A stretch of 64,000 bases of DNA from Azolla caroliniana (taxonomy: Eukaryota; Plantae; Polypodiophyta): positions 20,584,001 through 20,648,000 of the forward strand of contig JBHGNT010000012.1 in NCBI GenBank assembly GCA_043228905.1. Direction: 5' to 3'. Numbering within the stretch: position 1 is the stretch's first letter; each line of letters starts with the position of its first letter. Positions 442-64,000 of this stretch are shown here, in pieces. Both the position numbers and the translations under genes were made by a program. The notes beneath the pieces were generated by a model, which saw only the letters and a list, made by a program, of their open reading frames with translations, ran no database searches and was not told where the DNA came from.

Positions 442-1044
442 TGATGGAAATTAATCGACACTTTCCAAACTTCACCTCTCGGCCACAACCAAGGAAACAC
501 ACAAATCGTTGTTGCAGAAAATGGGAAATGCGAAAAATAGAGTGGACACACGATTTAACGTGGAAAACCCTGTACGGGAAAAACCACGGGAGTACAAGAC
601 TCCAAACCAAAAACTATGCACAGAGAAATATACAATGGCGAGCTTCAAGGCGACGACCTTGAGCTCGCTGTCCTCGCCACAGGCGGCGGAAATACACAGA
701 GGCGTCGACCTCTTTCTCTCTCACGCTCTATCTCTCTCACGGCTGCTCTCTCTTCACTCCTCTTGAGTGGAAAAACAGAAAAATGAGAAGCAACATAAAA
801 ACTGTTTGCCCTAAGTCATATTTATACACATATGACTTTGGGGCTATTTACAACTATAGCCTCAAGGGCCCTTGGCAAACATATTCACGGATATGTCCCC
901 GCATCCGGATCTCTCTCCGGGTACATTCGTCATCCGGCTCCGAAGCCGGGGTCTTCATCATCCGGTTCCGAAACCGAAACCGGACTTGTCGGCATTCATC
1001 TCTGACATCCGACCATCCCATCCGAAGGGACCGTAATCCCAACA
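442..1044 (-). repeat. 5' LTR of copia element inserted into a gypsy pol
   Basis: TGTTGGGA...CATCA termini on the minus strand. The end motif (cat[c/t]cg[a/g]agggacc...cccaaca) recurs at ~17980-18006, ~47188-47212 and, reversed, at 40344. Confidence 0.8.
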
Positions 1045-3350
1045 AAATATTAGTGGTCGGACATCTATGTGGGCCCTACGGCCGAAGACCGTCACCAACA
1101 AAGATCGATGCGATTCAAGCTATGGAGGAAGTATGCGAGTCAACATCTGAAGTCCGAAGGTTTCTCGGTGCATGTGCATTCTATCACATATGGATTCCGC
1201 ACTATGCACATATAGCGGACCCGCTCTACCACTTGTTGCGGAAAGGTAAGAAATTCGAATGGAAACCGGAACACACCAAAGCCATGAAGAAATTGAAGAA
1301 GACACTTCGGAGGGCGGAAGCACTTAAGAAGCCGAGCTATGACCGACCGATCACGAAAACGGTTGATACAAGTCCAACCGGTATCAGGTGGGTCATCAAT
1401 CAAGCCGACTCGGATGGTTCGCAGTATCCGATCCGATTTGGAGCAAAGGTTCTCAACGAAAGGCAACGTGGATATGCACAAGTCAAAAGAGAACTGTGGG
1501 GAGTCGTGTCGGCGATAAAATCGGATCGGAATTATTTGATCGGAGCCGAAGTGGTGATCGAGACGGATTGTCTTCCGATACTCGGGATGATGCGGTGTTG
1601 TACGATACCAGATGTAGCTATGCTAAGGTGGGTTGCATATGTCAAGTCTCTTAATCCGGAGGTTCGACACATCTCGGGGAAGGAAAACGCGGTAGTGGAT
1701 ATGTTATCAAGGGCTCGGTTCGGAGACAACATAACCGAATCGGATAATGAAGAAGTTTCCGAAGACTACTTCTCGTCGGAGCACATATGCCGAGTGAACG
1801 TAATCCGAGAATTCCGGGAAGAAGAATACGAGGGAGAAAGCTTGATGATCGGAAAGATGTTACAAGAGGCCGAGGATTCAACAAACGATAAAGGAAGAAG
1901 AGCCGAGATCCGAAGGAAGAAGAGGCAGGTCCAAAAGTTCTTCTTGGAAAACGGATTAATATGGAGGGCGCCGAAAAGACCGGATGGTATACCACTTCGA
2001 GTAGTCGGGACAAAAGAGCAACGAAACCGGATAATGTCCGAGTTTCACGAATCCGATTGGGCTGGACACCGAGGAACATGGGCAACATTTGTGAAGATCA
2101 AGCAAAAATATTGGTGGAAGAAAATGTACAAAGATATCACGGAGTTTACCGAAAGCTGCGAGAAATGTCAAGTCTACTCCGGGGTTCGACATCGAGATGA
2201 GTTACATCCGACATTCTCACCGACAATCAACTTCAAGTGGATGGTCAACATAGTGGCCATGCCGACCGGGATCGGACAAAAGAAATACTTGGTATTAGCT
2301 CGGGAAGATCTCACGAATCAAGTAGAAGGTCGAGCGCTTCAGAGGAAAACGTGTTCCGCGGTATGCCAATTTCTTTTGGAGGAAGTATTTTGCAGGTACG
2401 GGTGCGTAGGACAAGTGATTGCGGACCGGGGAGAACTCGACTCGGACAAAGCTAGGGGATTCTTCGCCAAACACGGAGTTCGGTTATCGCTGACAACGGC
2501 ATACAATCCGGAGGCCAACGGGAAAATCGAACGAGGACATAGTCCGATCGTAAAAGCACTTGCGAAGGCATGCGATGGAAAGGTGAAGGACTGGCCGCAG
2601 ATGCTTCCGTATGCACTATGGGCGGATCGGACGACGCATAGCTCCATAACCGGTTACATGCCGGCAGAACTCATGACCGGACAAGCACCGGTAATGCCGA
2701 CGGAAACCGCGATCGCGACATGGACAGTGCTACCGTGGAAGGAAGAGATGAGCCGGGAAGAACTACTAGCGGTCCGGATACGACAACTAGAGGGAAGAAC
2801 GACAGACATAGCGGAAGCAATACGCCGACAACAAGAAGCACGATTAAGGAACAAAAGCCGGTTCGACACAAAGCACCGACTACGACCGAGGAGGATTGAA
2901 GAAGGAGACTGGGTGATCGTCTATGACAGTAGTTTGGACCATCAACATACAACGATGCGGAAATTCGCGAAAAGGTGGTTCGGGCCATACGAGGTTCGGA
3001 AAGTCTTCGACAACGGAACGTACCGACTGTCCGAGTTGGATGGAACAATACTACGAGTGCCTATAGCCGGGAAGCGGGTGAAGATTTTCAAGAAGCGGAC
3101 CGACGACAAACCCTATGTGATCCAAGCCAAGGCCGACTATGAGGAGCAATCAGACGAAGACCACGGGGATGCGGGAAGCGAAGAATGTGAATTACAACTC
3201 ATAGTCGACATAAGGGGAGAATCGGAGGAAGCTTTGGGTGAAGACGGATATGGGGAATCGAGAACTTTGGCACATACCGGAGGATGTGCGGGTTCGGAGG
3301 GGGCGAGTGTCGTAGTGTATTCCACACACTACGTGAAAACCATAAAATAA
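1045..3350 (+). CDS. Ty3/gypsy pol, 3' part: RT end, RNase H, integrase (HHCC, core, GPY/F)
   Basis: RRFLGACAFY, DTSPTG..YAQVKRELWGVV..TDC (RNase H), HESDWAGHRG..CEKC (zinc finger), ADRGE..YNPEANGKIERGH (core), WFGPY. The first ~87 aa of the 783..3350 ORF are translated LTR sequence. Confidence 0.9.
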
Positions 3351-8127: not shown

Positions 8128-8673
8128 TCATTCTACACTTAGTTGCCACTACTGTTCGGTTGTGGATTGTTGCCACTATTCGATCCGATGGAGTTCACTC
8201 CTCCTCCACTTCCGCCATTCTACACTTAGTTCCCGCCACTATGCGTTCCAAGCATCATTTGCCACTGTTCGATCTGAAGGAGTTCACTCCTCCATTGCCA
8301 CCATTCTACACTCAGTTGTCGCCATTGTTCGGTCCTAGATTGCAATAACTATTTGATCCGATGGAGTTCACTCGTCCATTGCCACCATTCTACACTCAGT
8401 TGCTGCCAATGTTCGATTCTGGATTGCAATAATTGTTCCTTTGTTGATTATCTTGTGTATTGTTGTGTATAATCTTGTGTATTGAGGAATAATTTTGTGT
8501 ATTGTTGTTGCCCATAGTCATCTTAGCTCGTTCCCGACGGTGGTTGAGTAGCTTTCACTCCGCTGCAACAAACATAAACTTACCAATGGTGGGATCGCTC
8601 TTGTGAATCACCTGTTTGCATGTGGTTTAGTAACTAGCTACGTGTCTTTTTTTGTGGAAATTTACTAATGAAT

Positions 8674-8935
8674 ATGTCAAGCCAAATGGAAGGGGAATGA
8701 GGATGTTTTCCAATACCCCTCATGGATCATTAGGATAGGGATGACGCTACCAGGACACAACAAGTGATACGAAAGTATTGGGAAGAAAAAAAAGGAAACA
8801 TCGTCAATTGTTGAAGGATACGAAAGCCACATTCACTAAAAGTAAGGATAGTATTGGTTGCGATATAGGTCTAAGTAGCGTACATGCACTCTCATTTGGT
8901 TAGGTGCATCAACGCCTCGATGTCGCAATACAATA
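8674..8935 (+). pseudogene. Transposase remnant of copy A (N-terminus, then an internal deletion)
   Basis: ATGTCAAGCCAAATGGAAGGGG...AGTAAGGATAGT aligns with the start of the 62709 ORF (MSNQMEGEEG...KGKDS). The sequence after ~8853 is absent from copy B and may be the C-terminus (inference). Confidence 0.7.
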
Positions 8936-9540
8936 GCTACTCATATTTATACACAATTAGTGCTAATGTGTATGGAATTTGTAGCTACAAGGAGATCATA
9001 CCAATTTTCTTGTAAAACAAGCAAACCACATGTATTGCAAAAAAACAGTTTAATAAAATCGTTTGGGAGACTATCTTCTTTCTTATATATAGTTTTCTTT
9101 CTGTTCTTGTTTCTTAATAAAATCATTTGGGAGTCTTCTTTTTGATATACAGTCTTCTTTTTGTTCTTCTTTCTTAATAAAATCATGTGTCTTTTTTATA
9201 TGCAATCTTGTTTCTGTTCTTCTTTCTTACAAAACAGTTTAATAAAATCGTTTGGGAGTCTTCTTTCTAATATATAGTTATACTTATTGCAACTTTCCGT
9301 CTTAGTGTCTGTTCAATGTGCATAATGACGATTATGTTGTTTGGAATACATTTTCGCAATGGTTTTATTACTCTCAAGTGAACCATGTACAAGTTCAAAC
9401 AGTTTGCCTAATTCGAAGAAAAAGCAACAAAATGGAATCAGAAATCGTGTACCTACTCTTAAAATTACATTGTAGATAATTTTTACTCAAAACAAGCGAT
9501 TTAATTCTTCATTCATTAATCTGTCATCAAATTACATATT

Positions 9541-10556
9541 TATAATACACCATTGGCAATGTCTACAAAGCGCCTATAAACAACTAAGCTCTTGCTAGTC
9601 AGTGGAACTTCGCTACATATATGATCTGCATACCGAGCTTGGTATGGAGTCCACAACCATACAATTAGTTGGCAGCTCAATGTTTTCACCAAGTAGTTAT
9701 CAAGCATTTCCTCGGGTACAATGAGACAACATCTGCAAAGGTTGAAGTATTGCCGGAAATGTTATGTATCCACGATCAACGTATTGTCGGCATTATATTT
9801 GGGCCAAGTATCCCGAAAATTAGAGTCTTTTGAATCTTGCATTATCCTTCTGCTCACATTTTTCTCGTGTCCACTGACCCTTGAAATGTTGTCGCCACTT
9901 CGGGAAGAATCTTTCAACACACTTCCACACATTTAAACGTGGGTTTTCACTCCAAATAAACAAATCAAAGTATTGCACAACCCACTCTAGAAATTGATTC
10001 GCGTCCCTCCTTGGCTGCATATATCGCACACTCATCAGGACTTTATCAAGCTCCAATATCAAGGCACTTCTTTTGTGTTCTAATGGTTTAGGTTTCCATT
10101 CTTGCAACGAAGCTTGTGTTACACCAAGTATTGGTAGCACACGATCAATTTCAATCAACTCAGGTTCTGTCGAAACAATTGGTGTCCTTTTCTTCTTCAA
10201 ACCCCTAGTCAACTATATCGTTGGGTCTGGCTTCACCTTGTATTGCTATTGTGCAGTCATTGGGTCTGGCTTCACACTGTTTTGCTCTTGTATAGTCGAT
10301 TGTGTAATCAGTCCTAGCATTACCTCTGTGCATGTAGATACTTCTCTGGTCGATATCAACCCACTTGTATCATGTGCTACATCTACCTGTAAAATCAGAT
10401 CATCTGTGCAACATGCTTGATCTACTTGCGTGACAAGATCATTTGTGTCAGTTGCTACATCTACTTTCAAAATGGGGCTCTCTAAACATGTAGCAAAATC
10501 AACAGTTTCCACAGTGCCATCAGCCTTAGGAGCAATAGATTCAAACCCTTTACACT
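9541..10556 (-). pseudogene. Cargo exon encoding a NIF/FCP1-homology (HAD-fold) phosphatase-like domain
   Basis: KRSALILELDKVL..RRDANQFLEWVVQYFDLFIWS..FKGQWTREKC..WPKYNADNTLIVDT matches the NIF pattern LVLDLDxTL..RPxxxxFL..FxxxxWS..NTLLxDD. Acceptor ttgcag lies at 10557-10562. Stops and one frameshift are present. Confidence 0.65.
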
Positions 10557-10799
10557 CTGCAACATAAGAAAACACCAACATATTCACACTCACAAAGTAG
10601 CTAATAGTCTCACAAAACAACATAATGAACATAAAATATTCTGCAACAAAATAATAATATTATCTTAATATCCATCATAGAGTTCCATTACATAATATGG
10701 ATCAAGCAACAACCAATCTAAGGTTTTACTTGTCCAAATAGATCATAGAAAATCTTCATAATTTTCTAGGAAAATAACCAACAATCATATCCCACTAAT

Positions 10800-13219
10800 C
10801 AGTAATTGGCAGTAATTAGCTCCAATTCAAGAGCCCCTTCACTGAGTAATTGTTCTTGTCCTCAATTGTGGCCCCTTCTTTAGCCTTTTTCTAGCCGGTT
10901 GCCCATTTAGTCCTACTTCTTTCACCCATTGTGCAAGTGTGTCCTCCTCCGACAACCTTTCTATCACCTCAACAACAGCTTGCACGCCAGTCGCGTCTTG
11001 CACTAGCTTTTCAAGTACAGTGGGATCTGGTGGGACATCATCAGCAATTGAGCTCAGTGGGGTTGAATCAAGCATTGTAGCTAATTAGCTGATACACTAT
11101 AGGCTGGCAGTAGCTAATTAGCCACTACACTTTATACCGCTTTGCTAATTACCTACGTTGTAGCTAATTAGCTACGACACTACTGAACCATAACAACTAA
11201 ATAGCTACCACACTTTATACAACTTAGCTAATTAGCTAAGATGTAACTAATTATCTACTACATTATAAAGACAAGCAACAATTTTACCTATCAGTTTTCT
11301 GCACTCATTTGGGAGAGTTGTATTGCAATCCCCCAAACAGACTACAGCAATGCAACAGGCATATTGAAAACAAACGATATGGTATGTGTGCTAGCAAGGT
11401 CGTAGGTATACCAACAAAGTAGCAACTTTGTCCTCTACGCCTAAGCTGCAAGCGATGCAACGTGCTTGAACAGTCAATATATTGTTGCATGGTTCTCCTT
11501 CGTTTGGTAAGGAAGCAAGAATGTTGAGGTCCAATTCTTGTGTACTCCCTACCATCCCCTCTTCAAAATGTAGTTGCATCTTAAGGCAGCTAAGTACCTG
11601 TTCTTGACGGGAGTATTGTTTTTAGAACACATGCGAGAAATTTACCGATTTATCATACTTTAATGAGGAAGGTAGAACAACAAGAAACAAGAATCATTAA
11701 CTTACTTGGAGGTTCTCCAAATTGTAATCAGCGATAGTATTTACACCTAGAAGGTTCAAGTTCATTAAAAGAACCTAAATCTTTGTCTGTAGTTGTATTT
11801 TCCAATGGCGATCCAACGGACCCTCAATTTCGAGCTCATATTGAGCAACCTATTCCACATAATGCCTCACTAAGCACATTTTCATGTACAAGTTATTTAT
11901 AACATGTTACATACTAGCAAAACAATAGCTACCTGAATCTTATTTATTATTGTTATCACTACCAAAGTGACTTTGCTCACCATCACAGTTGCCAATGTTG
12001 CTTTCTCTAAATCAGTCTTTGTTGCCTCCAATGTCTCACAGGCTTCATGGACATTTTTCAACATATAGCTAATCAATGTCTCACCTGTGTCATCGACATT
12101 GGCTTTCATTGTGTTTCGGTGTGGTGTATACTTGCGGGTTTGTTGGGGGTCGGCAGTTGCATCATCTACCGATGCCTCATCATAAATAGCCCTAGCCACC
12201 TTGTACATTTCAGGGTCTGTTGATTCCTTCGTTGTTTTGCAATACTCATATGCAAAAGCTCTAGCGAATGCAATAGACAACTTGTTGTTGACCGGGATCT
12301 CTTGATTTACTTTCTGGTGGAGCCTTATACAATCGTCAGACAACTCCGATCGTACATGCTTGAGCTTCACCTTGCCTTTCACTCTCGGCACTTTATAGAT
12401 TGACGACCAGTCTACATCACTAATCAATTTATCTGTTAGAACAACAATGTCAATACCCTCTAGCGACAGAACATATATGTTGTTAAAGTTCTCCTTTGTC
12501 TCACAAAACTTTGCAAAGTTTAGCACTCTAGGATATGGAGGGACGAGCCACCTGAAATAAAAAATCAATATATGTTACCTCTGCTCTACTCAGACATGTG
12601 TATTTAGAACCGTAATTGGTAGGGAAGAATCAAAAACAAAAAATCAGCCACATTCACCCAAATCCTAAATCAAGTTTGGGGGAAGTTTGTAAACACATAA
12701 CCATTGAAATCAGAAATGTGAATTGGTACAAAATTCCAACACTAAATCTAAAAATTTTAACAGTAATAAAAAATCAACTGCTTAAAAAAGCAGAAACCCT
12801 ATTTAGAAGCCTTAATCTAAAACCCTAATCAGAAATCAGCCGCTTAAGGAAATCAAAAACCCTAATCTGAAATATGTATGAAATCAACCCTAATCATAAT
12901 TGGTAGGGAAGAATCAAAAATAAAAAATCAGCCACATTCATCCAAATCCTAAATCAAGTTTGGGGGAAGTTTGCGGACACAACCATTGAAATAAAAAATG
13001 TGAATTGGTGCAAAATTCCAAAACTTAATCTAAAATTTTCAACAGTAATAAAAAATCAACCACTTAAAAAATCAGAAACCTTAAAAAGAAACCCTAATCA
13101 GAAATCAACCGCTTAAGGAAATCAGAAACCCTAATTTGAAATATGTATGAAATCAACCCTAATCAGATTTTTTGTCAATCAGAAACACACCTGTTGTTAC
13201 ACCCCGATCTTCGAGACAT
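10800..13219 (-). pseudogene. Cargo gene of copy A (unknown domain + RING-like), spliced and decayed
   Basis: MSRRSGCNNR|WLVPPYPRVLNFAKFC... has the same exon and intron positions as the 55612-59539 gene. CIAC..PC.H remnant at ~11340-11460. Confidence 0.75.
12555..13190. repeat. Intronic AAACCCTAAT (telo-box-like) repeats with a ~284-bp tandem duplication
   Basis: Recurrent gaaaccctaatc; the block taattggtagggaagaatcaaaa starts at ~12613 and again at ~12897. Confidence 0.7.
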
Positions 13220-14599
13220 CCTTGTTTGGGACTCCAATGACTTCGTCGTAATCGTTTTTTATAAAAGATGAACAAGCAACAAAGTTATCGTTATTAGAAA
13301 GGAAATTAATTAATTAATTAATGTGTAACTGATACATACCTGGACGAGGATCGAACTGGTGGTGTGTTGTAGCTCTGAAGGTGCAATGTCGATATCAAAG
13401 ATTTTGTGCTGCTGCGGAAGCTTTGTCTATGTTTGTGCTCAAAGTACTCTATCTGTTTGGATTTCGAACTCAAACTGAGGATTAACAGGAATTTGGTGAC
13501 ATTCAAGTCGAGTTTAGATGAGGGCACTGTTCCCCAAGTTCCACTACGTCAAAAACCAAAGTTCAAATTTTAATCAATAAAGCATAAAATTTATTAATAA
13601 AGCATAAAATTTTGTAAATGATCCTTATGATTTGCCCACAAAAAACGAGCTAAATAGCTATGGCCATTTTAGCAGCTAATTAGCTATAATAGTGTTTCCA
13701 CTCGCATGCTTTTACCCCCCTACCTCTTGGGATCAAGGAGTCGTCCTCCTTGTAGCCTATCCACTTCTCTGTTGTCGACCTTTGATTAGCAACTACCCCA
13801 AGCAATAGAGTATTCATAATTCAGATCTCACAATCCATCCGCCCCTAATTTTGTGGAGTATATTGGCTTGATCTTGTAGTGGCAATGACATAAACCGTCT
13901 CCAACTAAACCACACAAATTTTCCTTTTTTCTAGTACCATAATATATTAATTCTTGAAGATCTCTCTATGTTGAGCCTGATTGAGCACCCATATTTTGTA
14001 TCACCTTCAACTCCTCCTTTGACAACCATTTGTTAAGTTCTTAATTGTTAAAGCAATCCAATTACATATATGATGTTGAAATGGAAGAGAAGTTATTCTT
14101 TGGCACATTTTCTTTTGAACATGCTACCTCCAAATTAGCAATAGTTTGTTGTGTTTTAGATTCTATTATTGCTATTAAATTCAACAATACTTACTTGTAG
14201 TTATATGAAAGTGTCACCTTTACATCAAAGATGACAATAACTTTTCATGCTTCATATCCAAGATTTCGACTTGAGAGGTTCCCTAATACTTAAATTGTTT
14301 GTACTTGAGAAGCCTCTATGGTATGTTCGTTGGTGATGGGTAAAGTATTATTCGTCAACCTCTTTGTGACCTTGACATGCATATGCAAATCTATGTGCAA
14401 ACATCGTCCAAACTTCAATGTTTATGATTTGTTGCATATTATACAATTTTTTGAAAGTGTGTTGTAGCTCCTTTAAATTGCTTATGTGAAATTAGCTCCT
14501 TGTTTTTTACTTTAATAACTCTCATGTTTCATCATCCATTCTTTTAGTTATTCATAGTTGTCAAAATGTGCACGAGTGAAAAAAAACTTTTTTACCTCG

Positions 14600-26760: not shown

Positions 26761-27953
26761 TGCTTGTGGTAAAAGAAATGAGCTCCTCAAGAGAATGGCA
26801 AGTTTCAATGTGGTTTCCGGTCATATTTCATTGCTCAATGGACTCCAATGTTTTTTTCTTTTCCATGTGTACGGATACTATCCCAAAATAGAACATTGAA
26901 GTTAAATTTGAGCATGAAAAAAAGTAAATTTTATCTCCCTATTACACAATATCTAATGAGATGACTTCAGAGAGACATAGTCGAGTTGAAAGTTGTGTTC
27001 CTTATTTACATCAAGCATGTGTTCCCAAAAAAATATCTAGACCATATATTTTGTTCGAAAGTTGTGTTCCTTATTTATGTCAACCATGTTTTCACAAAAA
27101 AATATCTAGAGTCCATATAAATTGTCTACTTGCACATGGAGTACAATGAGTCTGGCACACCAACTTTTCTTTAGACACCTAAACCCCTTAAATTGACAAG
27201 GAAAGCATGGAAATGGATTCAACGCATCGATGTATTCAACGCACATGATGTACTTGTCCAAATACATCACTCATTCATTGTTCTGAACAATGGCTTCTAT
27301 ACAATTTTTTGCATTCAATTCATTGCTCTAAAGGAAGTCTTGTATAATTTATGCATTCATGATGCACATAATTGTTTCTCATGAGTACATGAAAAACCCT
27401 AATGAGTAACAACAAAAGCAACTTCGGATCAAGTAGCTTACACGAAATCATTGATCAGACAATATGATAGACTTGGTTCCATGGGTCGTATTTTGCGTCG
27501 GAGAACATTAATGTGCTCCATACCCCCTCCTCCTTCCTGTGAAACATCACATAGCCTATTTATATAATAGGACAAAGGAAATAGGGTTCCATGCTTACAA
27601 AGAAGCCAACAAATATTCTAACAAGGCACACATCACAACCAAACATGAATGTGCCACATCATCCTGCACTTTGAGCATAGCTCTAGCCACCTGGTGAATG
27701 ATTCACTTCATGAATTATTCTTTGTTAATCTCTCTTTCTCTTGACTAAATTTATGGAGGGGTGAGCTAGTGTAACTATTCTCACTAGATAAAGCTAAGTT
27801 GTAGCCTTTTCTAGAGAAGGTTAATGAATGCATCCTTACCAACTCTCCCCAAGTGTGAACTAATACTTCTTCTACTACCTACACACTTACAAGAAGTGTT
27901 CCTAAAACTTCTCCCCAATACTACTACTACTACTTGGTAGTGGTGGTGGTGCC

Positions 27954-29733
27954 ATGGCTTCTTCCTCCCCCTCTTCTTCTTCTTCTTCTTCTTCCTTTTC
28001 TTCTTCTCCTCCTCCCTCTTCCTCGTCCTCATCCTCCTCCTCTTCGGAAATAGACCCCGCCGCGGCATGCTTTCACATGGTCTTATTCCCATACCCGATA
28101 ACGGGCCACATCCGGCCCCTAGTGAGCTTCGGTCATGCCCTCGTCGCCTCATATAGCAAATTTTCACCAAATAACCCTCACATTAACCAACCCCAACCCC
28201 AACCCCAACTAAGGATCACAATCATCCACACCGAGGCGAACCTCCACAACATTAGAAAACAGGATAGTAGTATCAATGAGAGCTCCCCCGGTGTCCGGGA
28301 CACAAACCAAGTTCACCTCCTCTCGATCTCCGATGGCCTCCCGCTAGACTTTGACCGAGCCGTGAATTACCCGGCTTTCTTCATGTCGATCCAACGGATG
28401 GGACCCGCATTGCTGGCGCGCCTGGCCGAGATCCGCTCGCAACACGGCCACATCTCGTGCCTCGTGTCAGACCCTAACTACCCATGGATCCTCGATCTCG
28501 CACGAAGCATAGACCTCCCCTGTCTCCTATTTGTTACTGACTCCGCATCGGCTTTCGCTGCCTCTTTATACGCTCGGCGGCTCCACAAGGAGGGGTTTAT
28601 CGGAAACAAAGGTAGGTAATTGTTGCAAGTACTCCCCAAGGAAGTAGAAATGTCTATTATATTGAAATCGTTGATTGATTGATTGAATTGAATTGAAACT
28701 TGGGGTCAATGTAGGCCCGCTTCCGGATCGACCGATCGATTTTATCCCGGGATTGCCGGGATTGCCAGCCGACGTTCTCCCCTTTCCACCCATCCAGCTT
28801 AGCGAATTCTTCTTCGAGCTCCGACTAAGCATGTACGACAAGGTCAGCGGGGCGGCCGGGATCCTCATCAACACAGTGTACGAGCTCGAGAAGGAAGTGA
28901 TGGATGGCATAAATATCCCGAGGCCGAAGCCAGAGGCATCTTCAGTGCCCATATTCGCGGTCGGGCCATGTGTGGAAGGGGCCGAGAGGTTGGGGTCATT
29001 GGCATGTTCGCTATCGTGTGGCGGCGGAGGGAGAGATATGGAGGAAGAAAGGCAGGTGTTGGCATGGCTAGATGGGAAGGAGGCAGGGAGTGTGGTATAC
29101 ATATGCTTCGGAACATTTGCCCGGCCAATGGACGAGGAGTCACGACAGATCGGGGCGGCGTTACGGGCGAGCCGCGTGCCATACCTATGGGCCGGCCAAC
29201 GCGGTAGCGTGCAACTTAAGCAAATCTTGGACATGAATGGTGATGATGAAGGAAAAGATGGTGAGGGATTAGTGGTGGAATGGGCACCCCAAACCGAGGT
29301 CTTGCGGCACCGGGCTGTCGGGGCATTCCTTACACACTGCGGTTGGAATTCGGTGATGGAGGCGACTATGGCCGGCACCCCGATGATATGCTTCCCGTTC
29401 GTGTTGGACCAACACATGTCATGCCGGCTTGTGGTCGACAAGTGGCGGACCGGCCTCCGCCTCGACCGCGGGCACGACCTCCGGCCACGCTTAACCTCCA
29501 TGCTTTCCCAACTCGTGCCACGTCCTGGTGCCCCGTGTTGTCCATGTCCGTGTCCAGTGAGAGCACGTGCACGGGAGCTCCGTCGCAAGCTTCTTGACAC
29601 GATGAGGACAAGGTCAAGGTCGAGTTGGGTGTCCATTGACAAGGACGATGAGGATAGTGAGGTAGTCGTGGGTAGGCCGGATTTAGTAACCAATGGCTTC
29701 CACGCCTTTCTCGACAACCTAACTTGTCATTGA
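27954..29733 (+). CDS. Family-1 UDP-glycosyltransferase (plant secondary-product UGT), 2 exons: 27954-28611 and 28715-29733, ~558 aa
   Basis: Catalytic-His motif HMVLFPYPITGHIRP, ISDGLP and CLVSD. PSPG box WAPQTEVLRHRAVGAFLTHCGWNSVMEATMAGTPMICFPFVLDQ. The phase-1 GT-AG intron 28612-28714 joins the two ORFs in frame. Ser-rich N-terminus. Confidence 0.93.
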
Positions 29734-36700: not shown

Positions 36701-37800
36701 GGTACATGTCGGACATTGTGAAGTACGAGTGTAGAGCCACCTGCAAGGTTGAGCTCTACTGTGCCGATTCCGATGATGTCACAGTGTTGTGAGTTGCCGA
36801 CTCGAACTGAGTCGGAGTGACGGATCGTATATTGCCGAAATTGGGACCGATGAGGAGTCACGTGAAATGACGCGCCCGAATCTAAGAGCCATGTGCTCGA
36901 TTCTTCAGTCGTGAGTAGAACTTCTGATCCGACTGGATTTTCGATTGATAGTATATTCGGGTCGTCCGGTAGTACATCAGCTGAGGAGCTGACGTAATTG
37001 ATCTCCTCATGCCGGCCACTCTTCTTGTTGTTCTTGTTCTTGAGTGCACGGCAGTCGGCTTTGATGTGTCCGGGTTTCTTGCAATAGTTGCAGGTTCGGT
37101 TATCCCGTGACTGGCTCCGTCTTCGTTGATTGTTCGGCGGCCGTGAGGAATCTCTTCCTCGTATGTTCGATCGGTCTGTCGAACCTTGTACTACGTAAGC
37201 GTCGTCTGTTGAGTCTTTGGCGAAAGACTTTCTCCGAGCTGCTTCGGTCAGGATTGCGCTCGTGACTTCGGAGTATTTGACAGCCGTGGTTGACGCGTTG
37301 CACACGGTTGTGACGAAAGTTTCCCATGATGAGGGAAGGCTGCTCATGAGTATCATTGCTCTGAGTTCATCCTCGATTGCCGTCCCCTGTGACGAGATTT
37401 GGGAGCTTATGCTTTCGTACTCGTTGAGGTGTGCTTGAACCGAATCGAATTCTTTCATCCGCAAGTTGTAGAGGCGTCGGATCAGAAACATCTTCGTTGC
37501 GGCGACCTTCTTTTCGTAAGTGTCCGACAGTGTTTTCCACAGTTCGAATGCTGTCGTACACGATTGCACCGTAAAGTATACCGACTCCGATAGGTGCATC
37601 CGAATCGTGGCGCGGACGATTCTGTCCAGCTTCTGCCACTCAATTGGTTTGTATCCTTCTGGTGGTTCTTCATTTTCGATGGGATCGATTTGTCCCTTGA
37701 CTATGAGATAGTCCTGCATTTGCTCCTTCCAGAAGTTGAAGTTCGATCCATCGAACTTTCGTAGACTCATTTCTGATGAGCCGGATGTTGATGCCATCAA
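33785..37800 (-). CDS. Copia gag-pol polyprotein (gag, CCHC, protease, integrase, RT, RNase H) with one frameshift at ~34490
   Basis: ORFs of 1109 aa and 229 aa; CNYCKKPGHIKADC, WLLDSGAS, HSDVCG..TDNGGEF..E, YVDDML, YTDSDFAG..EAEY. Confidence 0.95.
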
Positions 37801-55097: not shown

Positions 55098-55679
55098 TCT
55101 ACCCCCACCTGACCGTGCATTCACCGGTATGCGGGTAAAAGCATGCGAGTGGAAACACTATTATAGCTAATTAGCTACTAAAATGGCCATAGCTAATTAG
55201 CTATTTGTTTAGCTAGTCTTTTTTGTGGGAAAATCAAATATTTGAAAAACTAATTTATGAAAAAACTCAAATATTTGAACTTCTATTTCAGACGTAGTGG
55301 AACTTGGGGAATAGCACCATCATCTAAGGTCGACTTCAATGTCATCAATTTCCTGTTTAGCCTAAGTCTGATTTTGAATGCAGATGGAGTACTCAGAGCA
55401 CGAACGCAGACGTAGCTCCCGCAACAACAGAAAATCGACATTGTAGATTGAGAGCTACAACACAGAACCCGCTCGATCATCGTCCAGGTATGTTTCAGTT
55501 ACAGAAACCCCAAACATTTGTTTTTTCTTTTTTACTATTGTCTGAACTTTGGTGCCGATTCATATTTCCCCAAAATCGAATAGGGCGAAGTCTTTGGAGT
55601 CCCATACAAGGATGTCTCGCAAATCGGGGAGTAGCAACAGGTGTGTTTATATTACTTTTTTTGTGTTTAATCCTGTCTT

Positions 55680-56240
55680 TAGTGATGATTGGGGTTTCTG
55701 ATTGAAATTTCTGATTAGGGTTTTTGTTTATAAATTTCTGATTAGAATTTCTGATTAGGGTTTGTGATTGAAATTTCTGATTAGGGTTTCTGATTAGGGT
55801 TTTTAATTATAAATTTCTAATTAGAATTTCTGAATAGGGTTTCTGGTTACAAATTTTGATTATAGATTAGAATTTCTGAATAGGGTTTTTGTTTATAAAT
55901 TTCTGTTTAGGATTTCTGATTAGGGTTTGTGATTGAAATTTCTGATTAGGGTTTCTAATTTAAATTTTTGATTAGGGTTTTTGATTATAAATTTCTGATT
56001 AGAATTTCTGAATAAGGTTTCTGGTTACAAACTTCTAATTACAGATTTTGATTAGGGTTTCTGATTTCAAACTTCTGATTACATATTTTGATTAGGGTTT
56101 CTGATTTCAAATTTCTGAATACAAATTATGATTAGGGTTTCTGATTTGCTAAGTTAAAGATTTTGCACCATTTTTGTTGTTGTTGATTGGGGTTTCTGAT
56201 TCTCACATATTCTGATTTTGCACTATTTCTGATTTCTGAA
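55680..56240. repeat. Intronic minisatellite of TTCTGATTAGGGTT (telomere/telo-box-like)
   Basis: Many degenerate copies of gattagggtttctg / aaatttctgattag, confined to intron 1 of the cargo gene. Confidence 0.9.
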
Positions 56241-57584
56241 ATGATATTTCAGATGGCTCATTCCTCCGTATACGAGAGTGCTAAACTTCGCAAAATTTTG
56301 TGGGACAAAGGAGGACTTCCACAACACCTATGGTCTGTCACTCGAGGGTGTTGACCCTGCTGTCCTAAGTGATAAATTGATCAGTGATGTAGACTGGATG
56401 ACAGTATATACAGTGCCTAGAGTCAAAGGCAAGGTCAAGCTGAAGCATGTACGAGCCGACTTGTACGATGACTGCATGAGACTGCACCAGAAAGTTCATC
56501 AGGAGATCCCATTCAACAATGAGTTGTCAGTTTCATTTGCTAGAGCATTTGCATATGAGTACTGCAAAACAGCGAAGGAATCCAGAGACCCTGAAATGTG
56601 TAGGGTAGCTTGGGCAGTCTATGGTGAGACATCGGTAAAAAGATGCCGAAAGATGGGGACCTTGGCACAAAAAATAGACAGATTTTGGAGCATGGCAGCT
56701 GTTGATGCAACTACCGACTCCCAGCAAGACCGGGGGCATACACCACACCGACACCCAAGGAAAGCCAATGTCGATGATACAGGTGAGACATTGGTTAGCT
56801 ATATGCTAAAAAATGTCCATGAAGCCTGTGAGACATTGGCATTTTTTAAGACTGATTTAGAGAAAGCCACAATGGCTTCTGCAATGGAGAGCAAAGTTAC
56901 TTCTGTTGTTACAACAATTAGAAATAAGATTCAGGTAACTATTGTTTTGCTGGTATGTGATTGTGTTATAAATAACGGGTAAAATGTGCTAATCAAGCAT
57001 TATCTGGAATAGGTTGCGCAACAGGAGCTTGAATTAGAGGGGCCACTGGATCCCCAACGTAAAATAGAACTGCAAATAGAGATCCCGGTTCTTTCAATGA
57101 ACCTGGACCTTCTAGGTGTAAATACTGTTGCAGATTACAATTTGGATAAGGTTCAAGTAAGTTAACGATTCCTGAGCAAAGTTGGTGTATCTTTCAACAA
57201 CAAGAATAATTAATCGGTAAATTTCTCTGTTGCGTTGAAGGAACAACACATTCATCAAGAACAGGTAGTTAGCTGCCTTAAGAAGCAACTACATTTTGTG
57301 GATGGAATGGTAAGCACTAGACAGGATTTGGACCTGAACATTCTTGCTCCCTTACCAAATGAAGTAGAACCAGAAAATGATTTATTGACAGTTCAAGCAC
57401 GTTGCATCGCTTGCGGGTTAGGTGTGGAGGACAAAACTGCGTCTTTGTTGGTTCACCTACAACCATGCAACCACACATACCATCTGCTTTGTTTTCAACA
57501 TGCCTGTCGAATTGCTGCATTCTGTTTGGGAGATTGCAGTACAGCTCTACCAAATGAGTGGAGAAAACTAACAGGTATACCATA

Positions 57585-58985
57585 CTGTAGCTAATAAGCT
57601 TAGTCTTTTCTAATTAGCTATCCTACTAGCTAATTAGCTACTGGCAGCTAATGAGCTACTAGCTAATTAGCTATGGTACTAGCTAATTAGCTAGTACCAT
57701 AGTTGTGTAAAAAAGCTAATTAGCTATCCTACTAGCTAATTAGCCACTGGCAACTAATTAGCTATCCTAGTAACTAATTAGCTACTACCATAGTTGTGTA
57801 AAGTAGCTAATAAGCTATCCTAGTAGCTAATTAGCTACTAGCAGCTAATTAGCTATCCTAGTAGCTAATTAGCTACTGGCAGCTAATGAGCTACTAGCTA
57901 ATTAGCTATCCTAGTAGCTAATTAGCTATCCTACTAGCTAATTAGCCACTGGCAACTAATTAACTATCCTAGTAACTAATTAGCTACTGTCATAGTTGTG
58001 TAAAGTAGCTAATAAGCTATCCTAGTAGCTAATTAGCTACTGGCAGCTAATTAGCAATCCTAGTAGCTAATTAGCTATGGTACTAGCTAATTAGCTAGTA
58101 CCATAGTTGTGTAAAAAAGCTAATTAGCTATCCTACTAGCTAATTAGCTACTGGCAACTAATTAGCTATCCTACTAGCTAATTAGCTATCCTACTAGCTA
58201 ATTAGCTATCATAGTAGCTAATTAGCTACTGCCATAGTTGTGTAAAGTAGCTAATAAGCTATCCTAGTAGCTAATTAGCTACTGGCAGCTAATTAGCTAT
58301 CCTAGTAGCTAATAAGCTATCCTAGCTACTACATAGTTGAGAAAGTAGCTAATTAGCTTTCATTGTAGCTAATTAGCTATCCTAGCTACTACCATAGTTA
58401 GTAAAGTAGCTAATTAGCTATCCTAGCTACTACCATAGTTAGTAAAGTAGCTAATTAGCTATCCTAGCTACTACTATAGTTGAGTAAAATAGCTAATTAG
58501 CTATCCTAGCTACTACCATAGTTGAGTAAAGTAGCTAATTAGCTACCATAGTAGCTAATTAGCTATCCTAGCTACTACCATAGTTAGTAAAGTAGCTAAT
58601 TAGCTATCCTAGCTACTACCATAGTTGAGTAAAGTAGCTAATTAGCTATCCTAGCTACTACCATAGTTGAGTAAAGTAGCTAATTAGCTACCATAGTAGT
58701 TAATTAGCTATCCTAACTACTACCATAGTTGACTAAAGTAGCTAATAAATTAGCTATCCTAGCTACTACATAGTTGAGAAAGTAGCTAATTAGCTATCCT
58801 AGCTACTACCATAGTTGAGTAAAGTAGCTAATTAGCTATCCTAGCTACTACCATAGTTGAGTAAAGTAGCTAATTAGCTATCGTACTAGCTAATTAGCTA
58901 TCCTAATTAGCTATCATACTAGCTAATTAGCTATCCTAGCTTCTACCATAGTTTAGTAAAGTAGCTAATTAGCTATCCTAAATAG
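57585..58985. repeat. Intronic array of the palindrome TAGCTAATTAGCTA with higher-order units
   Basis: Dozens of copies lie between the donor at 57575 and the acceptor at 59002. ~40-bp units (tcctagctactaccatagttgagtaaagtagctaattagcta) occupy the distal half. Confidence 0.95.
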
Positions 58986-59663
58986 CTGCCATGTTATTGT
59001 AGAATCTGGTGGATTAAGGACGGCACATGATGTGTCTGGTGTTGATGATGCTGCAACAGATGAGGATATTACTGCCAACGTGGCTGAAAGTAAGAGTCCT
59101 GTTATCACATCTCCTTCAGATCAGCTCCACCCTATTCTTTTGGAACAGTGTACTGAATTAGGCAACGATGTGAAATGCCATGAAATAGTGGAAAAAACAT
59201 GTAAAACTGAGGTTCACAACAACAGTGTTTATGAACACTTGATGCAACATTTCTTCGAGTCTGAAGACCTTGATTCAAACCCCACCGAGCCCAACTACTG
59301 AAAATGTCCAAACAGATCACTCTGTACTTGAAAAGCTAGTTCAAGAAACGGCTGATGTGCAATTAGCTGTTGAGGCGATGGGAAGGTTGTCGGAGGAGGA
59401 CACACTTGCGCATTGGGTGAAAGAAGCAAGGCTAAATGGGGAACCAACCAGAAAAAGGCTGAAGAAGGGGCCACGATCGGGAACAAGACCAGTTACTCGG
59501 TCAAGGGGCCCAGACGTAGTGGAGCGAAATACTGTTTAGTTGGATATGATTGCTAGCTTAGGGATTTTGCTAGGGTTTTATGAAGTTTTACTATCCTGTT
59601 GGACAAGTAAAACCTCAGATTGGTTGTTGCTTGATCCACATTATGTAATGGAACTCTATGATG

Positions 59664-62600
59664 TTGCTTGATCAACCTGGAATAACCGCGAACAACATGC
59701 AGAGATCGCAATTCGGGAATTCCTTGGCACTCCCAGGTCTTCTCCCTATTTACTTCATCTATCTTCACTTCCCAAAATTCACGTTTGATATCTCAGACTT
59801 GCGAGGAATAAACACTTGTGGCACTTGTTGACATATTTGTTCTTAAAAATTCAACTACATGTGATGCACAATTCATGTGCACACCATCTGTCTTTAGTTA
59901 TTCATGGGTAAGTGCCCGCTTTATAACAGCCCCTGCACCATCATGTTCACCTTTACCATGGCCAGACCCAAAAAAATTCCATCTCATCTCCAAACCTGTT
60001 ATAGCAGGATACCTCCCCACAAAATAAAATGGACGTCGAGCCTTGAATTGTGACACAGCTCCGTCAGACCAGACCCAATGTTGAGTAAGCTCGAAACGTT
60101 GAGCTAATAACCACTGCCAATGTAACTTAAAACAATGTTGGACGAACAAGGTATCATGCTTCTTATCATCGGAAATAAAGAAATGAATTACTTTTTTAAC
60201 ATCACCTGAAACTCGAAAATATGTTATGTGCACAAAAATGGTTACCTGAACTGAACACCAATGCATAGATTGAATTTCATTCTGTTGCATGAAAGTATAA
60301 TTCTCTGCGAAATCTACTACTGAGACTACTACATCATTTGGGAAATCAGATATGCAAGTCTTAAACTGATGGGCCTGCCATGAATAAATGAAGTTGTGTT
60401 TAATGAACTTTCCTAGAGATACTACAAACAGAGACACCAAATCCCTTGGTTTAAGCATCTTCCGAACTAGATCCTTTCTTTTACACACCTTTCCTTCGAA
60501 ATTGGTGTTCACTGACTCAAATAACTTCACAGAGATCAATATTTCACTACTCAATTCATTTGGACACCACCTAAATCTAGTAGGGCCACAATCTTGACAT
60601 AAACCCATGACACATTTATGAATATGGAAGATAGCGTCAGTTTCTCTCGGACACAATATTGAATCTAATAAATAACTCATGGAAGAGATAACGTGCTTAG
60701 ATGATTTACACTCCTCTTGCGGGCTTGATCGACAGATTGGGCACCCACATGTGCAAACTGTATTAGTTAGGGATGCGCTATGGTGACGTAGTAGATTAAC
60801 AGAGTCCTTCAGAAAACCCATCTGTACATGGTAAATGCAACAACATGTGTATCGATCCTTTAAGCGTCTCACAAAGTGTGGCTTAAGAGACTCGAATGTT
60901 CATAGTTGAACTTTGATAGTTGGATGCATTCGTTTGAACCTAATAAATAAATCGACCTACGTAATAAAGGGGAATTAGTTATTCTCGTAACTAGCTAACT
61001 ATCCTAGTAGCTAATTACCTATTCTAGTAGATAATTAGCTATCATGGTAGCTAATTAGTTGTCCTAGTAGCTAATAAGCTATCATGGCAGCTAATTAGCT
61101 GTCGTAGTAGCTAATTAGTTATCATGGTAGCTAATTAGCTGCTCTAGTAGCTAATTAGCTATCATGGTGGCTAATTAGCTTTCCTAGTAACTAATTAGCT
61201 GCTCTAGTAGCTAATTAGCGGGTCTAGTAGCTAATTAGCGGGTCTAGTAGCTAATTAGCTATCATGGTGGCTAATTAGCTGTCCTAGTAACTAATTAACT
61301 ATCATGGTAGCTAATTAGCTGGTCTAGTAGCTACTTAGCTATAATGGTGGCTAATTAGCTGTCCTAACTAATTAGCTATCATGGTAGCAAATTAGTTGGT
61401 CTAGTAGCTAATTAGCTATCACGGTGGCTAATTAGCTATCCTAGTAAGCTAATTAGCTATCATGGTAGCTAATTAGCTTTCCTAGTAGCTAATTAGCTGG
61501 TAATAACGAAATAGCAAACTAGCTACCAGTACAACTAATTATCTGGTAGTACCTAAATTAGCTATTGAGAATAGCTAATTAGTTATCATGGTAGTAGCTA
61601 TTGAGAGTAGCCAGTTACCTATGTAGTAACTATCATAGTAGCTAATTAGCTATCATGGTAGCTAATTAGCTTTCCTAGTAGCTAATTAGCTGGTAATAAC
61701 GAAATAGCTAACTAGCTACCATGATAGCTAACTAGCTACCAGTACAGCTAATTATCTGGTAGTACCTAAATTAGCTATTGAGAATAGCTAATTAGCTATC
61801 ATGGTAGTAGCTATTGAGAGTAGCCAGTTACCTATGTAGTAGATATCCTAGTAGCTAACTGAGGTAAATGTAACTGATAAGTTAATTAGCTTTTCTGCTA
61901 ACTGAGCTAATTAACTTTCCGAGTAGAGTCAAAACAAATGTTGAGATAAATGTAAATACCTGAGGTACATCAAGAAGATGAATGGGATGCTCCTCGTATT
62001 GATTTCTTCCAACACGTTTCCTGCATAAATCCTTTTTATTGGGTGAAACCCTACTCTCATTAGTCCAAAACATTGTGATTACATCCTTGATTTCAAATGT
62101 TATGGGTGTCATTGGCTTACATCTTGTAGTTAGCTTTAGTAGACTAGTTCCTTCACCCGAGGAAATTATACGGTTCATTGTATTGTACACTGTTTTTCTA
62201 CTAACACCAATTACCTTAGATAGCTCACTGATGTTTATATCGTCAACATCACTATTAAGTAACATCATTAGACTAGACCTTTTTAAGACAAGATCATCTT
62301 CTGACCTGCTCATGGATACGAAACTATTACGAAGATTATTTACTAAAATAGATGATATGTTTGCATTAAGACCATCACAATCAACTAAGTCCTTTATCGA
62401 TGGATCATTACATATTCCATAAAGTACTACCTTCTTTTCTTCATTGCTGATGTGCTTGGTTTGAACATTGAAATAGTCTACAACCTTTCTCTCTATGATG
62501 GTAGTCGCATTACTTACATTCTCAGCTAAACTATCCTTACCTTTACTGAGTGTGGCTTTCGTATCCTTCAACAATTGACGATGTTTCCTTTTTTTTTCTG

Positions 62601-62709
62601 CCCAATAGTTTCGTATGGCTTGTTGTGTCCTGATAACATCATCCCTATCCTTATGATCATTGAGGGGTAATTCTAAACACCCTTCTTCCCCTTCCATTTG
62701 GTTGGACAT
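59664..62709 (-). pseudogene. Sola2-type DDD transposase, 2 coding exons (62709-61960, 60956-~59664), with point stops and a 3' truncation
   Basis: FESLKPHFV..TCCCIYH, VVDFAENY..QNEIQSMHW..QVTIF, ISDDKKHD, WSDGAVSQFK, WNFFGSGHGKGEHDGAGAVIKR. The phase-0 intron splices in frame. Stops at ~60901, ~59899 and ~59794 are consistent with C>T changes. Confidence 0.85.
60985..61915. repeat. TAGCTAATTAGCTA array filling the transposase intron
   Basis: ~20-bp periodic units (gctaattagctatcatggta / gctaattagctg.tctagta) plus a duplicated block (~61450-61630 vs ~61640-61840). Confidence 0.95.
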
Positions 62710-62839
62710 GTTAAAACCCTAAATTTCCAGAAAAAAAAACAAGTATTAAAGATGGCTATGGGCAACAACAATACACAAAAATATTCCACAATACACAAGA
62801 TTAGACACAACAATACACAAGATAATCAATAGACAGAAA

Positions 62840-63530
62840 AGTTATTGCAATCCAAGACCGAACACTAGAGGATTTCACTCCGTTGGATCGAACAGTTGAG
62901 GAGGCGATCCAAGACCGACCAATGGCAACAACTGAGTGTAGAATGTTGCCGTTGGATGAGTGAACTCCGTCAAATCGAAATGTGGAAGCAATCCGGGACT
63001 GGACAGTAGCGGCAACTGAGTATAGAATGATGGCAATGGAGGAGAGAACCCCGTCAGATTGAACAGTTACCGATGATGCTTGGAACGCACATAGAAGGCA
63101 CTTGAGAGTAGAGTGGCACAGAGAAGAGAACCCTGTCAGATTGAACAGTTACCAATGATGCTTGAAAGGCACAGTAGCGGCCCCTGAGTGAGAGTGGAAA
63201 AGAGAAGAGAACCCCGTCAGATTGAATAGCTCTTTGATGATGCTTGGAACGCATAGTAGCGGCCCCTGAGTGTAGAGTGGCAAAGAGAAGAGAACCCCGT
63301 CAGATTGAATAGCTCTTTGATGATGCTTGGAACGCACAGCAACGGCCCCTGAGTGTAGAGTGGCACAGAGAAGAGAACCCCGTCAGATTGAACAACTCTT
63401 TGATGATGCTTGGAATGCACAGTAGTGGCCCCTGAGTGTAGAGTGTCACAGAGAAGAGAACCCCGTCAGATTGAGCAACTCTTTGATGATGCTTGGAATG
63501 CACAGTAGCGGCCCCTCAGTGTAGAGTGGC
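62840..63530. repeat. 83-bp tandem repeat (about 6 good copies plus degenerate ones) upstream of the transposase
   Basis: gagaaccccgtcagattgaa...tgatgatgcttggaa.gcacagtagcggcccctgagtgtagagtggc. The ORF starts recur every 83 nt. A related degenerate array lies at 8128-8430 in copy A. Confidence 0.9.
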
Positions 63531-64000
63531 GGTAGGTGGACTCGATAGGGTTTAGCAACAATGGTAGCAACTAACCCACAGTACTCAACTAGAGATGGCC
63601 TACGTGATGTGGCAAAGGATCATGCATAATAGACCTAGGAATTCGATATATAATTTATGGTACACATTTATGGTGCACACCAATTTATGTTGCACATTTA
63701 TGGCACTCATTTACATATGTAATGAAAACACTCTAGTATTTTCAATGGTAGTTTTTTGCATACTTAATTTATTAATGATGGCTTTTTACTAAAATGACTA
63801 TTTATCAATGGTAGCTTTGTGCATAGCTAATTAGCTATGTCAAGGACATAGCTAATTGTTTCCACTCGCATGCTTTCACCCATGCGCCTAAATAGACTGT
63901 TGCCGGAGAAGACCGGCCCACGCCTACCCTTCGTCCTCCGGATTGCCATTCACCCCGAACCGGTCATCCTCGTGCCGCTTTTTGAACGCTTTGATCCTTT

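What the first reader, a model, noticed from the sequence alone, without database searches (positions are those of the whole stretch)
9541..13219. Transposon cargo: unknown domain + RING-H2 + probably catalytically dead NIF/FCP1 (CTD-phosphatase-like) domain
Seen: exon structure and phases are conserved between two diverged copies, so this is a real element gene. Copy A additionally keeps a downstream same-strand exon with a NIF fold, in which DxDxT reads ELDKV and the distal DD reads DT. Established: NIF/FCP1 domains act on phospho-Ser substrates such as the Pol II CTD, and RING-H2 domains are typically E3 ligases. Inference: an E3 coupled to a pseudophosphatase could be a TE-encoded anti-silencing or transcription-modulating factor, analogous in role (not sequence) to VANC of VANDAL elements. 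The splice joining the RING part to the NIF exon could not be resolved, so they may be two genes.
Basis: partly seen in the sequence, partly recalled or inferred. Interest (0 to 1): 0.85.

Follow-up and report, generated by a model that had tools for sequence, protein, structure and literature searches.

The report
Sola2 transposon's RING–pseudophosphatase passenger gene
This is a broken copy of a many-copy cut-and-paste jumping gene, likely from a fern, whose family keeps under selection a second gene for a zinc-finger protein with a likely dead phosphatase-type domain, which likely works as a docking adaptor on the element's own repeats and would help the element escape silencing or jump.

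Summary
The locus is a decayed copy of a 9–12 kb Sola2-type DNA transposon: GGG…CCC ends, 4-bp target duplications, and a DDD transposase on the opposite strand in full copies. The left end has 295 exact matches in the genome. The NIF exon is family-wide (276 exact motif matches); window copy B lost it by deletion. The E of ELDKV (45 of 46 copies) and the T of DT (40 of 46) are fixed. Even so, the NIF, RING-like, coil and N-terminal exons show purifying selection between subfamilies (dN/dS 0.15–0.34). An AlphaFold model (pLDDT 95) gives the FCP1/SCP fold. The domain comes from the DLNG-type NIF subfamily, not from the CTD phosphatases, so a Pol II CTD substrate has no support. Ceratopteris relatives share E/DT. 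One Adiantum gene model holds N-domain, RING-like and NIF in one protein with D/DD intact. Conserved splice sites give an in-frame fusion of about 800 aa (open in 3 of 7 complete young copies), but no RNA confirms it. The RING match is below Pfam's cutoff. VANC-like anti-silencing is plausible (palindrome arrays in introns) but untested; a transposition-cofactor role is nearly as likely.

The parts
13693..13717 (-). Left terminal inverted repeat of copy A (GGG end). The right end is missing; a copia element lies beyond about 8130.
   Evidence: 295 exact genome matches, control 0
13340..13452 (-). Predicted first coding exon (exon 0); ATG mutated to ATA in this copy; selection not shown
13191..13247 (-).
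12552..13190 (-). Intron 1 with telo-box-like (AAACCCTA) repeats
11933..12551 (-). Exon 2: unassigned helical N-terminal domain; 63-nt in-frame deletion in this copy
   Evidence: dN/dS 0.17 for its first 150 codons; homologue in Adiantum P0048, hhalign probability 98.8
11706..11849 (-). Exon 3: predicted long helix or coil; one stop in this copy
   Evidence: dN/dS 0.15; colinear and intron-less in P0016
11288..11621 (-). Exon 4: RING-H2-like zinc finger; acceptor mutated and a stop inside in this copy
   Evidence: ligands kept in 26-31 of 31 copies; dN/dS 0.34; Pfam below cutoff
11077..11287 (-). Intron 4 remnant with AGCTAATTAGCT palindromes (arrays up to 1.7 kb in young copies)
10830..11076 (-). 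Remnant of exon 5 (3' part); its acceptor and internal donor are deleted in this copy
9540..10556 (-). Exon 6: acidic repeat linker, KRKR/KKKR basic patch and NIF/FCP1-like domain; stops and a frameshift in this copy
   Evidence: Pfam NIF; dN/dS 0.22; AlphaFold pLDDT 94.8 and Foldseek
10039..10053 (-). HAD motif I reading ELDKV (nucleophile position is Glu)
   Evidence: E in 45 of 46 copies, D in none
9765..9770 (-). HAD motif IV reading DT (second Mg-binding Asp is Thr)
   Evidence: T in 40 of 46 copies, D in none
8130..8900 (+). Remnant of the transposase 5' region and subterminal repeats of copy A; most of the transposase is deleted
55133..63881 (+). Copy B: young-subfamily element with both ends and target duplication ATGC; exons 0-5 at 55384-59539; NIF exon and transposase C-terminus deleted at about 59665
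59666..62718 (-). Copy B transposase remnants: HTH-bearing first exon at 61885-62718 and part of the Sola2-type catalytic exon
   Evidence: motifs compared with PMC3627910 Additional file 10

Best explanation
The locus is a decayed copy of a Sola2-type DNA transposon, likely of a fern, whose family carries a second gene under purifying selection that is predicted to encode one protein of about 800 residues (N-terminal domain, coil, RING-like finger, likely catalytically dead NIF domain) that likely docks on the element's own palindrome arrays and would act as a non-enzymatic adaptor keeping the element active against host silencing. Shown: element anatomy, copy number, selection on four domains, NIF fold (model), fixed E and T, origin from the DLNG-type subfamily, same domain order in an Adiantum gene model. 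Inferred: splicing of RING to NIF through the conserved phase-1 donor in exon 5; loss of catalysis (from the Fcp1 mechanism); nuclear localisation; use of the NIF pocket as a peptide or phosphopeptide reader, as in the non-catalytic FCP1-like core of Tim50 (recalled). Speculative: DNA binding by the N-terminal domain, ubiquitin ligase activity, and the anti-silencing outcome.
For: Element: TIRs, exact 4-bp duplications in 5 of 6 two-ended fetched copies plus copy B, and a transposase with the DFAENYTF / SDGAASQFK / GHGKGEHDG motifs that match the Sola2 alignment. Selection, young vs old-2 consensus: N-domain 0.17 [0.09-0.30], coil 0.15 [0.04-0.40], RING 0.34 [0.15-0.73], NIF 0.22 [0.12-0.40], transposase 0.14; off-frame controls for NIF and N-domain 1.3-1.6. 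Three-way counts: NIF p 1.8e-10, RING p 6e-5. Dead site: E in 45 of 46 and T in 40 of 46 copies. In Fcp1, Asp170 is the nucleophile and Asp298 a direct Mg ligand (PMC4436666 passages). Fusion: donor AAA|GTAAGA and acceptor TTGCAG|AG are both phase 1 and stand in the subfamily consensuses (one acceptor base unresolved in old-1); the fused frame is open in 3 of 7 complete young copies; Adiantum models P0048, P0077 and P0158 hold RING-like and NIF in one chain. VANC-like anatomy: 18-87 perfect palindromes per element, 0 in flanks, at most 1 in shuffles, in introns of both genes; a 13-residue tandem peptide repeat in the linker. VANC targets also form intronic tandem repeats (PMC5735166 section 9).
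Against: No transcript shows any junction, so a RING-only form ending at the exon-5 stop (618 aa, open in 4 of 8 young copies) and a separate NIF gene starting at the conserved MLVFS remain possible. The Adiantum models are automated, and P0048 has intron-like text in its linker. The RING is below the Pfam cutoff. The N-domain has no assigned fold or DNA-binding feature, and no sequence link to VANC or PMD was found. The palindrome also sits 33-59 nt from the left end and 56 nt from the right end in several copies, which fits transposase or cofactor binding equally well. Old copies measured against their own consensus gave 0.43 (NIF) and 0.57 (N-domain), not 1, so hidden substructure or mutation bias lowers the ratios somewhat. 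One RING off-frame control was 0.68. One decayed copy (L100) reads DLDKV. The ancestral DLNG-type proteins have no activity data in what I read.
Confidence: 0.4

Rival explanations
1. Transposition cofactor: the protein binds the subterminal and internal palindromes and/or the transposase and helps synapsis, integration or transposase turnover, like CACTA TnpA (recalled) or maize MURB, with no effect on silencing.
For: The palindrome lies next to both TIRs. The gene is retained with the transposase in all three subfamilies. MURA binds MURB (PMC12973397 passages).
Against: Most palindromes lie in intronic arrays kilobases from the ends. RING-like and NIF domains suggest handling of host proteins. 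No interaction test was run.
Confidence: 0.3
2. Two products: a 618-aa N-domain/RING protein ending in exon 5, and a separate or alternatively spliced NIF protein, acting together or apart.
For: Exon 5 stays open for 167 codons in all three consensuses and ends in a stop in young copies; a Met precedes the NIF exon in all subfamilies. The spacer between exons 5 and 6 is highly conserved in DNA.
Against: The 3' part of exon 5 shows no significant selection (ratio 0.63, p 0.14), while the part before the donor does weakly (0.39, p 0.044). There is a strong T-rich acceptor before the NIF exon, and the Adiantum models are single chains.
Confidence: 0.2
3. The NIF domain keeps some hydrolase or phosphate-binding chemistry, using Glu or the second Asp, rather than being a dead reader.
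For: The motif II Ser, motif III Lys, the Asp at motif I position 3 and the first Asp of motif IV are all retained. The Asp at position 3 is an Asn in the DLNG relatives.
Against: The nucleophile and a direct Mg ligand are both replaced, in this family and in the Ceratopteris relatives.
Confidence: 0.07
4. Neutral hitchhiking of captured host exons (Pack-type cargo).
For: Most old copies, including this one, are broken.
Against: dN/dS 0.15-0.34 between subfamilies, conserved splice sites, and the same domain order in another fern genus.
Confidence: 0.03

Closest known systems
Sola2 DNA transposons (alignment in PMC3627910 Additional file 10, part 1 of 2 read)
   Same: DDD transposase motifs, short TIRs and 4-bp TSD. 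Sola2 elements are known to carry passenger genes (Fanzor1 in amoebozoa).
   Different: Plant host. TSDs are not restricted to AWWT (AGAG, TATG, TGTA, ATGC seen). The passenger is a spliced RING-like/NIF gene facing the transposase tail to tail.
VANDAL/VANC anti-silencing MULEs, including Ulp1-bearing KIU (PMC5735166 abstract and section 9; PMC13317346 passages)
   Same: Accessory gene retained by the element, motif arrays as tandem repeats in introns, tandem peptide repeats, and a captured protein-modification domain.
   Different: Different superfamily. No DUF1985/DUF287/PMD match. DNA binding and demethylation are untested here.
DLNG-type plant NIF (FCP1-homology) proteins; Adiantum MCO5553172.1; Ceratopteris KAH7437414.1
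   Same: Same NIF subfamily. MCO5553172.1 has the same domain order; the Ceratopteris proteins share E and DT.
   Different: MCO5553172.1 keeps D and DD. Whether these fern genes lie in Sola2 elements could not be checked.
FCP1/SCP CTD phosphatases, UBLCP1, CTDNEP1 and Tim50 core
   Same: Fold: Foldseek E 1.6e-7 to 7e-4, TM about 0.5-0.63.
   Different: 12-20% identity, no DxDxT, no BRCT or UBL domain. The host's own CTDSP/CPL genes fall on a separate branch.
PMD-phosphatase modules MAIN/MAIL1-PP7L and MAIL3 (PMC7156037 passages)
   Same: A TE-related domain paired with a phosphatase-type domain, in cis or in trans.
   Different: Host genes with a PPP-type phosphatase; no homology to this protein was found.

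Membership tests
Sola2 transposon | DDD transposase with DF[AS]ENY, SDG..QYK and HGK..DG motifs | tested here: met
   Motifs at residues 221, 303-311 and 338-348 of the 619-aa exon, compared by eye; no profile score
Sola2 transposon | 4-bp target-site duplication | tested here: met
   5 of 6 two-ended fetched copies plus copy B; feature stated in PMC3627910
Sola2 transposon | TIRs with GRG ends (recalled from the original description, which was not held) | tested here: met
   GGG...CCC, about 24-bp imperfect TIR
Sola2 transposon | Phylogenetic placement inside Sola2 versus Sola1/3 | not tested
   No reference sequences were available as data
NIF/FCP1-like HAD domain (PF03031) | Profile match above cutoff and fold | tested here: met
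Active DxDxT CTD phosphatase | Asp nucleophile, DxDxT and distal DD | tested here: not met
   ELDKV and DT; D in 0 of 46 copies at either site
Active DxDxT CTD phosphatase | Branches with the CTDSP/CPL/FCP1 genes | tested here: not met
   Nested among DLNG-type proteins in a quick tree; the careful search did not finish
Pseudophosphatase | No measurable catalysis | not testable with these tools
   Inferred from the Fcp1 mechanism
RING-H2 E3 ligase | C3H2C3 zinc ligands | tested here: met
   Eight ligands kept in 26-31 of 31 copies; last pair spaced x3
RING-H2 E3 ligase | Profile score above cutoff | tested here: inconclusive
   zf-RING_2 E 0.033 and 0.24, zf-rbx1 E 0.08, all below cutoff
RING-H2 E3 ligase | E2 binding and ubiquitin transfer | not testable with these tools
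   The usual Trp, Pro and linchpin Arg (recalled) are absent from the sequence
VANC-type anti-silencing factor | DUF1985/DUF287/PMD-like core | tested here: inconclusive
   No Pfam hit; model pLDDT 55, too poor for a fold test
VANC-type anti-silencing factor | Short motif amplified as tandem repeats in the element's non-coding regions | tested here: met
VANC-type anti-silencing factor | Sequence-specific binding and loss of methylation | not testable with these tools
   Needs experiments

The most novel reading that the evidence does not exclude
Fern Sola2 transposons evolved, independently of VANC, a single self-addressed effector: it binds the element's palindrome arrays, reads a phosphorylated host silencing or transcription factor through a dead NIF pocket, and ubiquitinates it through the RING finger, so the transposon carries a phospho-reader E3 against host chromatin control.
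Probability: 0.15. Interest if true: 0.85.

Novelty: new variant of a known kind. Interest (0 to 1): 0.58.

Why it matters
Few transposon counter-defence or accessory proteins are understood, and the studied ones (VANC, MURB, TnpA) come from flowering plants. This one sits in a rare plant superfamily (Sola and Ginger together 9 of 3203 active clusters in PMC12973397). It has young copies over 99% identical to each other with open frames, a candidate DNA target, and a natural pair of D/DD (Adiantum) and E/DT versions of the same domain. That makes both its function and the change from enzyme to pseudoenzyme directly testable.

Tried and rejected
RNA: no RNA holder was listed. Three runs were laid on a young and an old copy. 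None gave a joint at a predicted intron, and contigs of run X1 (kind unknown) ran through introns. This is no evidence for or against splicing or expression. N-terminal domain: no Pfam hit; no usable Atlas hit; no longer homologue among 791 candidates; AlphaFold model pLDDT 54.9; no Foldseek match at E<=0.001; VIA rows reflect only generic helical hairpins, best Z 9.2. Its fold stays open. PDB sequence search of the NIF domain: only UBLCP1 at E 0.95. Idea that the exon 5/spacer region is a separately amplified repeat (high depth): not supported in this genome, with 274 spacer-motif, 276 NIF-motif and 295 left-end matches, and NIF within 1.5 kb in 27 of 30 spacer loci. Exon 5 showed no significant similarity to the linker of the Adiantum proteins. 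Helitron, CACTA, MULE and hAT were rejected on the ends, TSD length and transposase motifs. One search's spliced-frame test had two exon limits off by one and was redone; the exon-1 row was in the wrong frame and was also redone. The original Sola paper and the Fcp1 structure paper were not held. No complex prediction was run.

Full report
Observation. The window holds two copies of one element in opposite orientation, A (13717 to about 8130, minus) and B (55133-63881, plus), about 80% identical in exons. Copy A is a dead copy: ATG>ATA in a predicted upstream first exon, two lost acceptors, stops in exons 3, 4 and 6, a frameshift in the NIF domain, and loss of the transposase and right end. 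Copia sequence lies on both sides (for the left-end side; sequence).

The element. The NIF exon found 558 candidates in the 523-Mb genome, and all 150 scored were matches. Of ten 20-kb stretches, six held both ends: elements of 9.1-11.9 kb with GGG...CCC termini, five with an exact 4-bp duplication; copy B adds a sixth. Full copies carry, tail to tail with the passenger gene, a two-exon transposase whose 619-aa exon has the motifs of the Sola2 alignment in PMC3627910 (Additional file 10, part 1 of 2 read). It has no Pfam hit, as PMC5751038 reports for Sola (passages). Exact motif counts are 295 left ends, 274 spacers and 276 NIF motifs. Of 30 copies with the RING exon, 28 have the NIF exon. 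Six of the young copies compared are over 99% identical to each other, and two more (including copy B) about 98%. The host is inferred to be a fern: the closest named relatives are from Ceratopteris and Adiantum, and PMC6786969 notes abundant SOLA elements in Azolla (passage).

Selection. The 47 projected copies fall into a young group (9) and two old groups (10 and 28). Between majority consensuses (young vs old-2), dN/dS is 0.17 for the N-domain, 0.15 for the coil exon, 0.34 for the RING exon, 0.22 for NIF and 0.14 for the transposase, each with a bootstrap interval below 1. Off-frame controls were 1.1-2.2 except one RING frame at 0.68; the non-coding spacer and 3' region gave 1.98 and 0.82, and two short intron controls gave 1.46 and 0.45 with wide intervals. 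Three-way counts agree (NIF p 1.8e-10; RING 6e-5). Exon 0, exon 1, the 3' part of exon 5 and the exon-6 linker are not significant. A caveat: old copies against their own consensus gave 0.43 for NIF and 0.57 for the N-domain, so substructure or mutation bias contributes.

The NIF domain. Pfam NIF is above cutoff. The AlphaFold model of a young copy has pLDDT 94.8 and matches UBLCP1, CTDNEP1, Tim50 and SCP1/2 at E about 1e-7 to 1e-5. Position 1 of motif I is Glu in 45 of 46 copies and the second motif-IV residue is Thr in 40 of 46, with Asp in none. One decayed copy picked up by the NIF profile reads DLDKV (1 of 74 element rows, with duplicates). In Fcp1 these positions are the nucleophile Asp170 and the Mg ligand Asp298 (PMC4436666 passages), so loss of catalysis is likely; the passages I read cover Ala and Asn, not Glu, at the nucleophile. 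A profile search gave 1,626 relatives; the best 150 mostly read DLNG...DD. In a quick tree of 153 rows (careful search unfinished) the element's domains join Ceratopteris proteins that also have E and DT (SH-aLRT 99), next to the Adiantum P0048 group (92), and apart from the host's CTDSP and CPL genes. So the change predates the split from the Ceratopteris lineage (inferred), and the Pol II CTD idea has no direct support.

One gene or two. A phase-1 donor 87 nt into exon 5 is present in all three consensuses, and so is the phase-1 acceptor of the NIF exon (one base unresolved in old-1). Joining them gives open frames of 794, 807 and 833 aa in 3 of 7 complete young copies. Reading through exon 5 gives a 618-aa RING-only form, open in 4 of 8. 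Adiantum model MCO5553172.1 has the N-domain (hhalign 98.8%), the RING-like finger (E 8e-10 among 232 held proteins) and a D/DD NIF in the same order, and two more Adiantum models join RING-like and NIF. These are automated models. A relative without intron 2 confirms the exon 2-3 junction. I favour a fused main product with possible alternative termination.

Mechanism. A gene that is selected only while inside a transposon should serve the element. Each element holds 18-87 perfect AGCTAATTAGCT palindromes, with none in the flanks. They lie in introns of both genes and beside both ends. This recalls VANC targets (PMC5735166, abstract and section 9) and the Ulp1-bearing KIU variants (PMC13317346 passages), but also cofactor-bound subterminal repeats and MURA-MURB (PMC12973397 passages). 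I commit to a non-enzymatic adaptor on the arrays that protects the element from silencing (0.4), with a transposition cofactor as the main rival (0.3). DNA binding, E3 activity and any effect on methylation are untested.

Novelty. Ten literature searches (listings only unless cited above) showed no report of a NIF or RING/NIF passenger in Sola elements. The original Sola description and Repbase entries were not available, and the supplementary domain tables of PMC12973397 were not read, so a prior annotation is not excluded. An earlier unreviewed note of this scan describes what appears to be the same family; it is not independent support. Verdict: a new variant of a known kind, interest 0.58.

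Noticed in passing
L061:4280-4690 (exon 5 3' part and spacer): Runs X1 and X2 show 20- to 100-fold higher depth here, with loose ends into A-rich and microsatellite sequence, as if this piece were separately amplified in those samples. Exact-motif counts in this genome do not show such an excess.
   Followed up: partly
L052:4766-5014; window 10557-10830: The non-coding spacer between exons 5 and 6 is more conserved in DNA (about 90% young vs old-2) than the flanking exons; possible regulatory element.
   Followed up: partly
L078/L079 (G000:C15:261700 and 234883): Two identical-scoring single-exon DLNGV...DD NIF genes 27 kb apart, the closest non-element NIF found in the genome, but on a separate branch from the element's domain.
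   Followed up: partly
P0094, P0150, P0154: Angiosperm gene models that join a DLNG-type NIF domain to Transposase_32, or to weak Ulp1 and HMG-box matches, suggest repeated capture of this NIF subfamily by other plant transposons.
   Followed up: no
window 12552-13190 and 55641-56252: Intron 1 is built of telo-box-like (AAACCCTA) repeats, 7-15 per element.
   Followed up: no
L052:5154-5238: A 39-nt (13-residue) in-frame tandem repeat in the exon-6 linker varies in copy number among young copies (open frames of 353, 366, 379, 392 aa).
   Followed up: no
window 63108-63605 and 8140-8430: 83-bp tandem array upstream of the transposase, near the right end.
   Followed up: no
window 27906-29730 (+): Host gene that looks like a UDP-glycosyltransferase (recalled motifs; not scanned).
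   Followed up: no
window 663-3347 (+): 895-codon open frame, not examined.
   Followed up: no
window 34474-37869 (-): 1132-codon copia-like gag-pol frame; 199-bp identical direct repeats at 33231 and 38564 suggest a young insertion.
   Followed up: no
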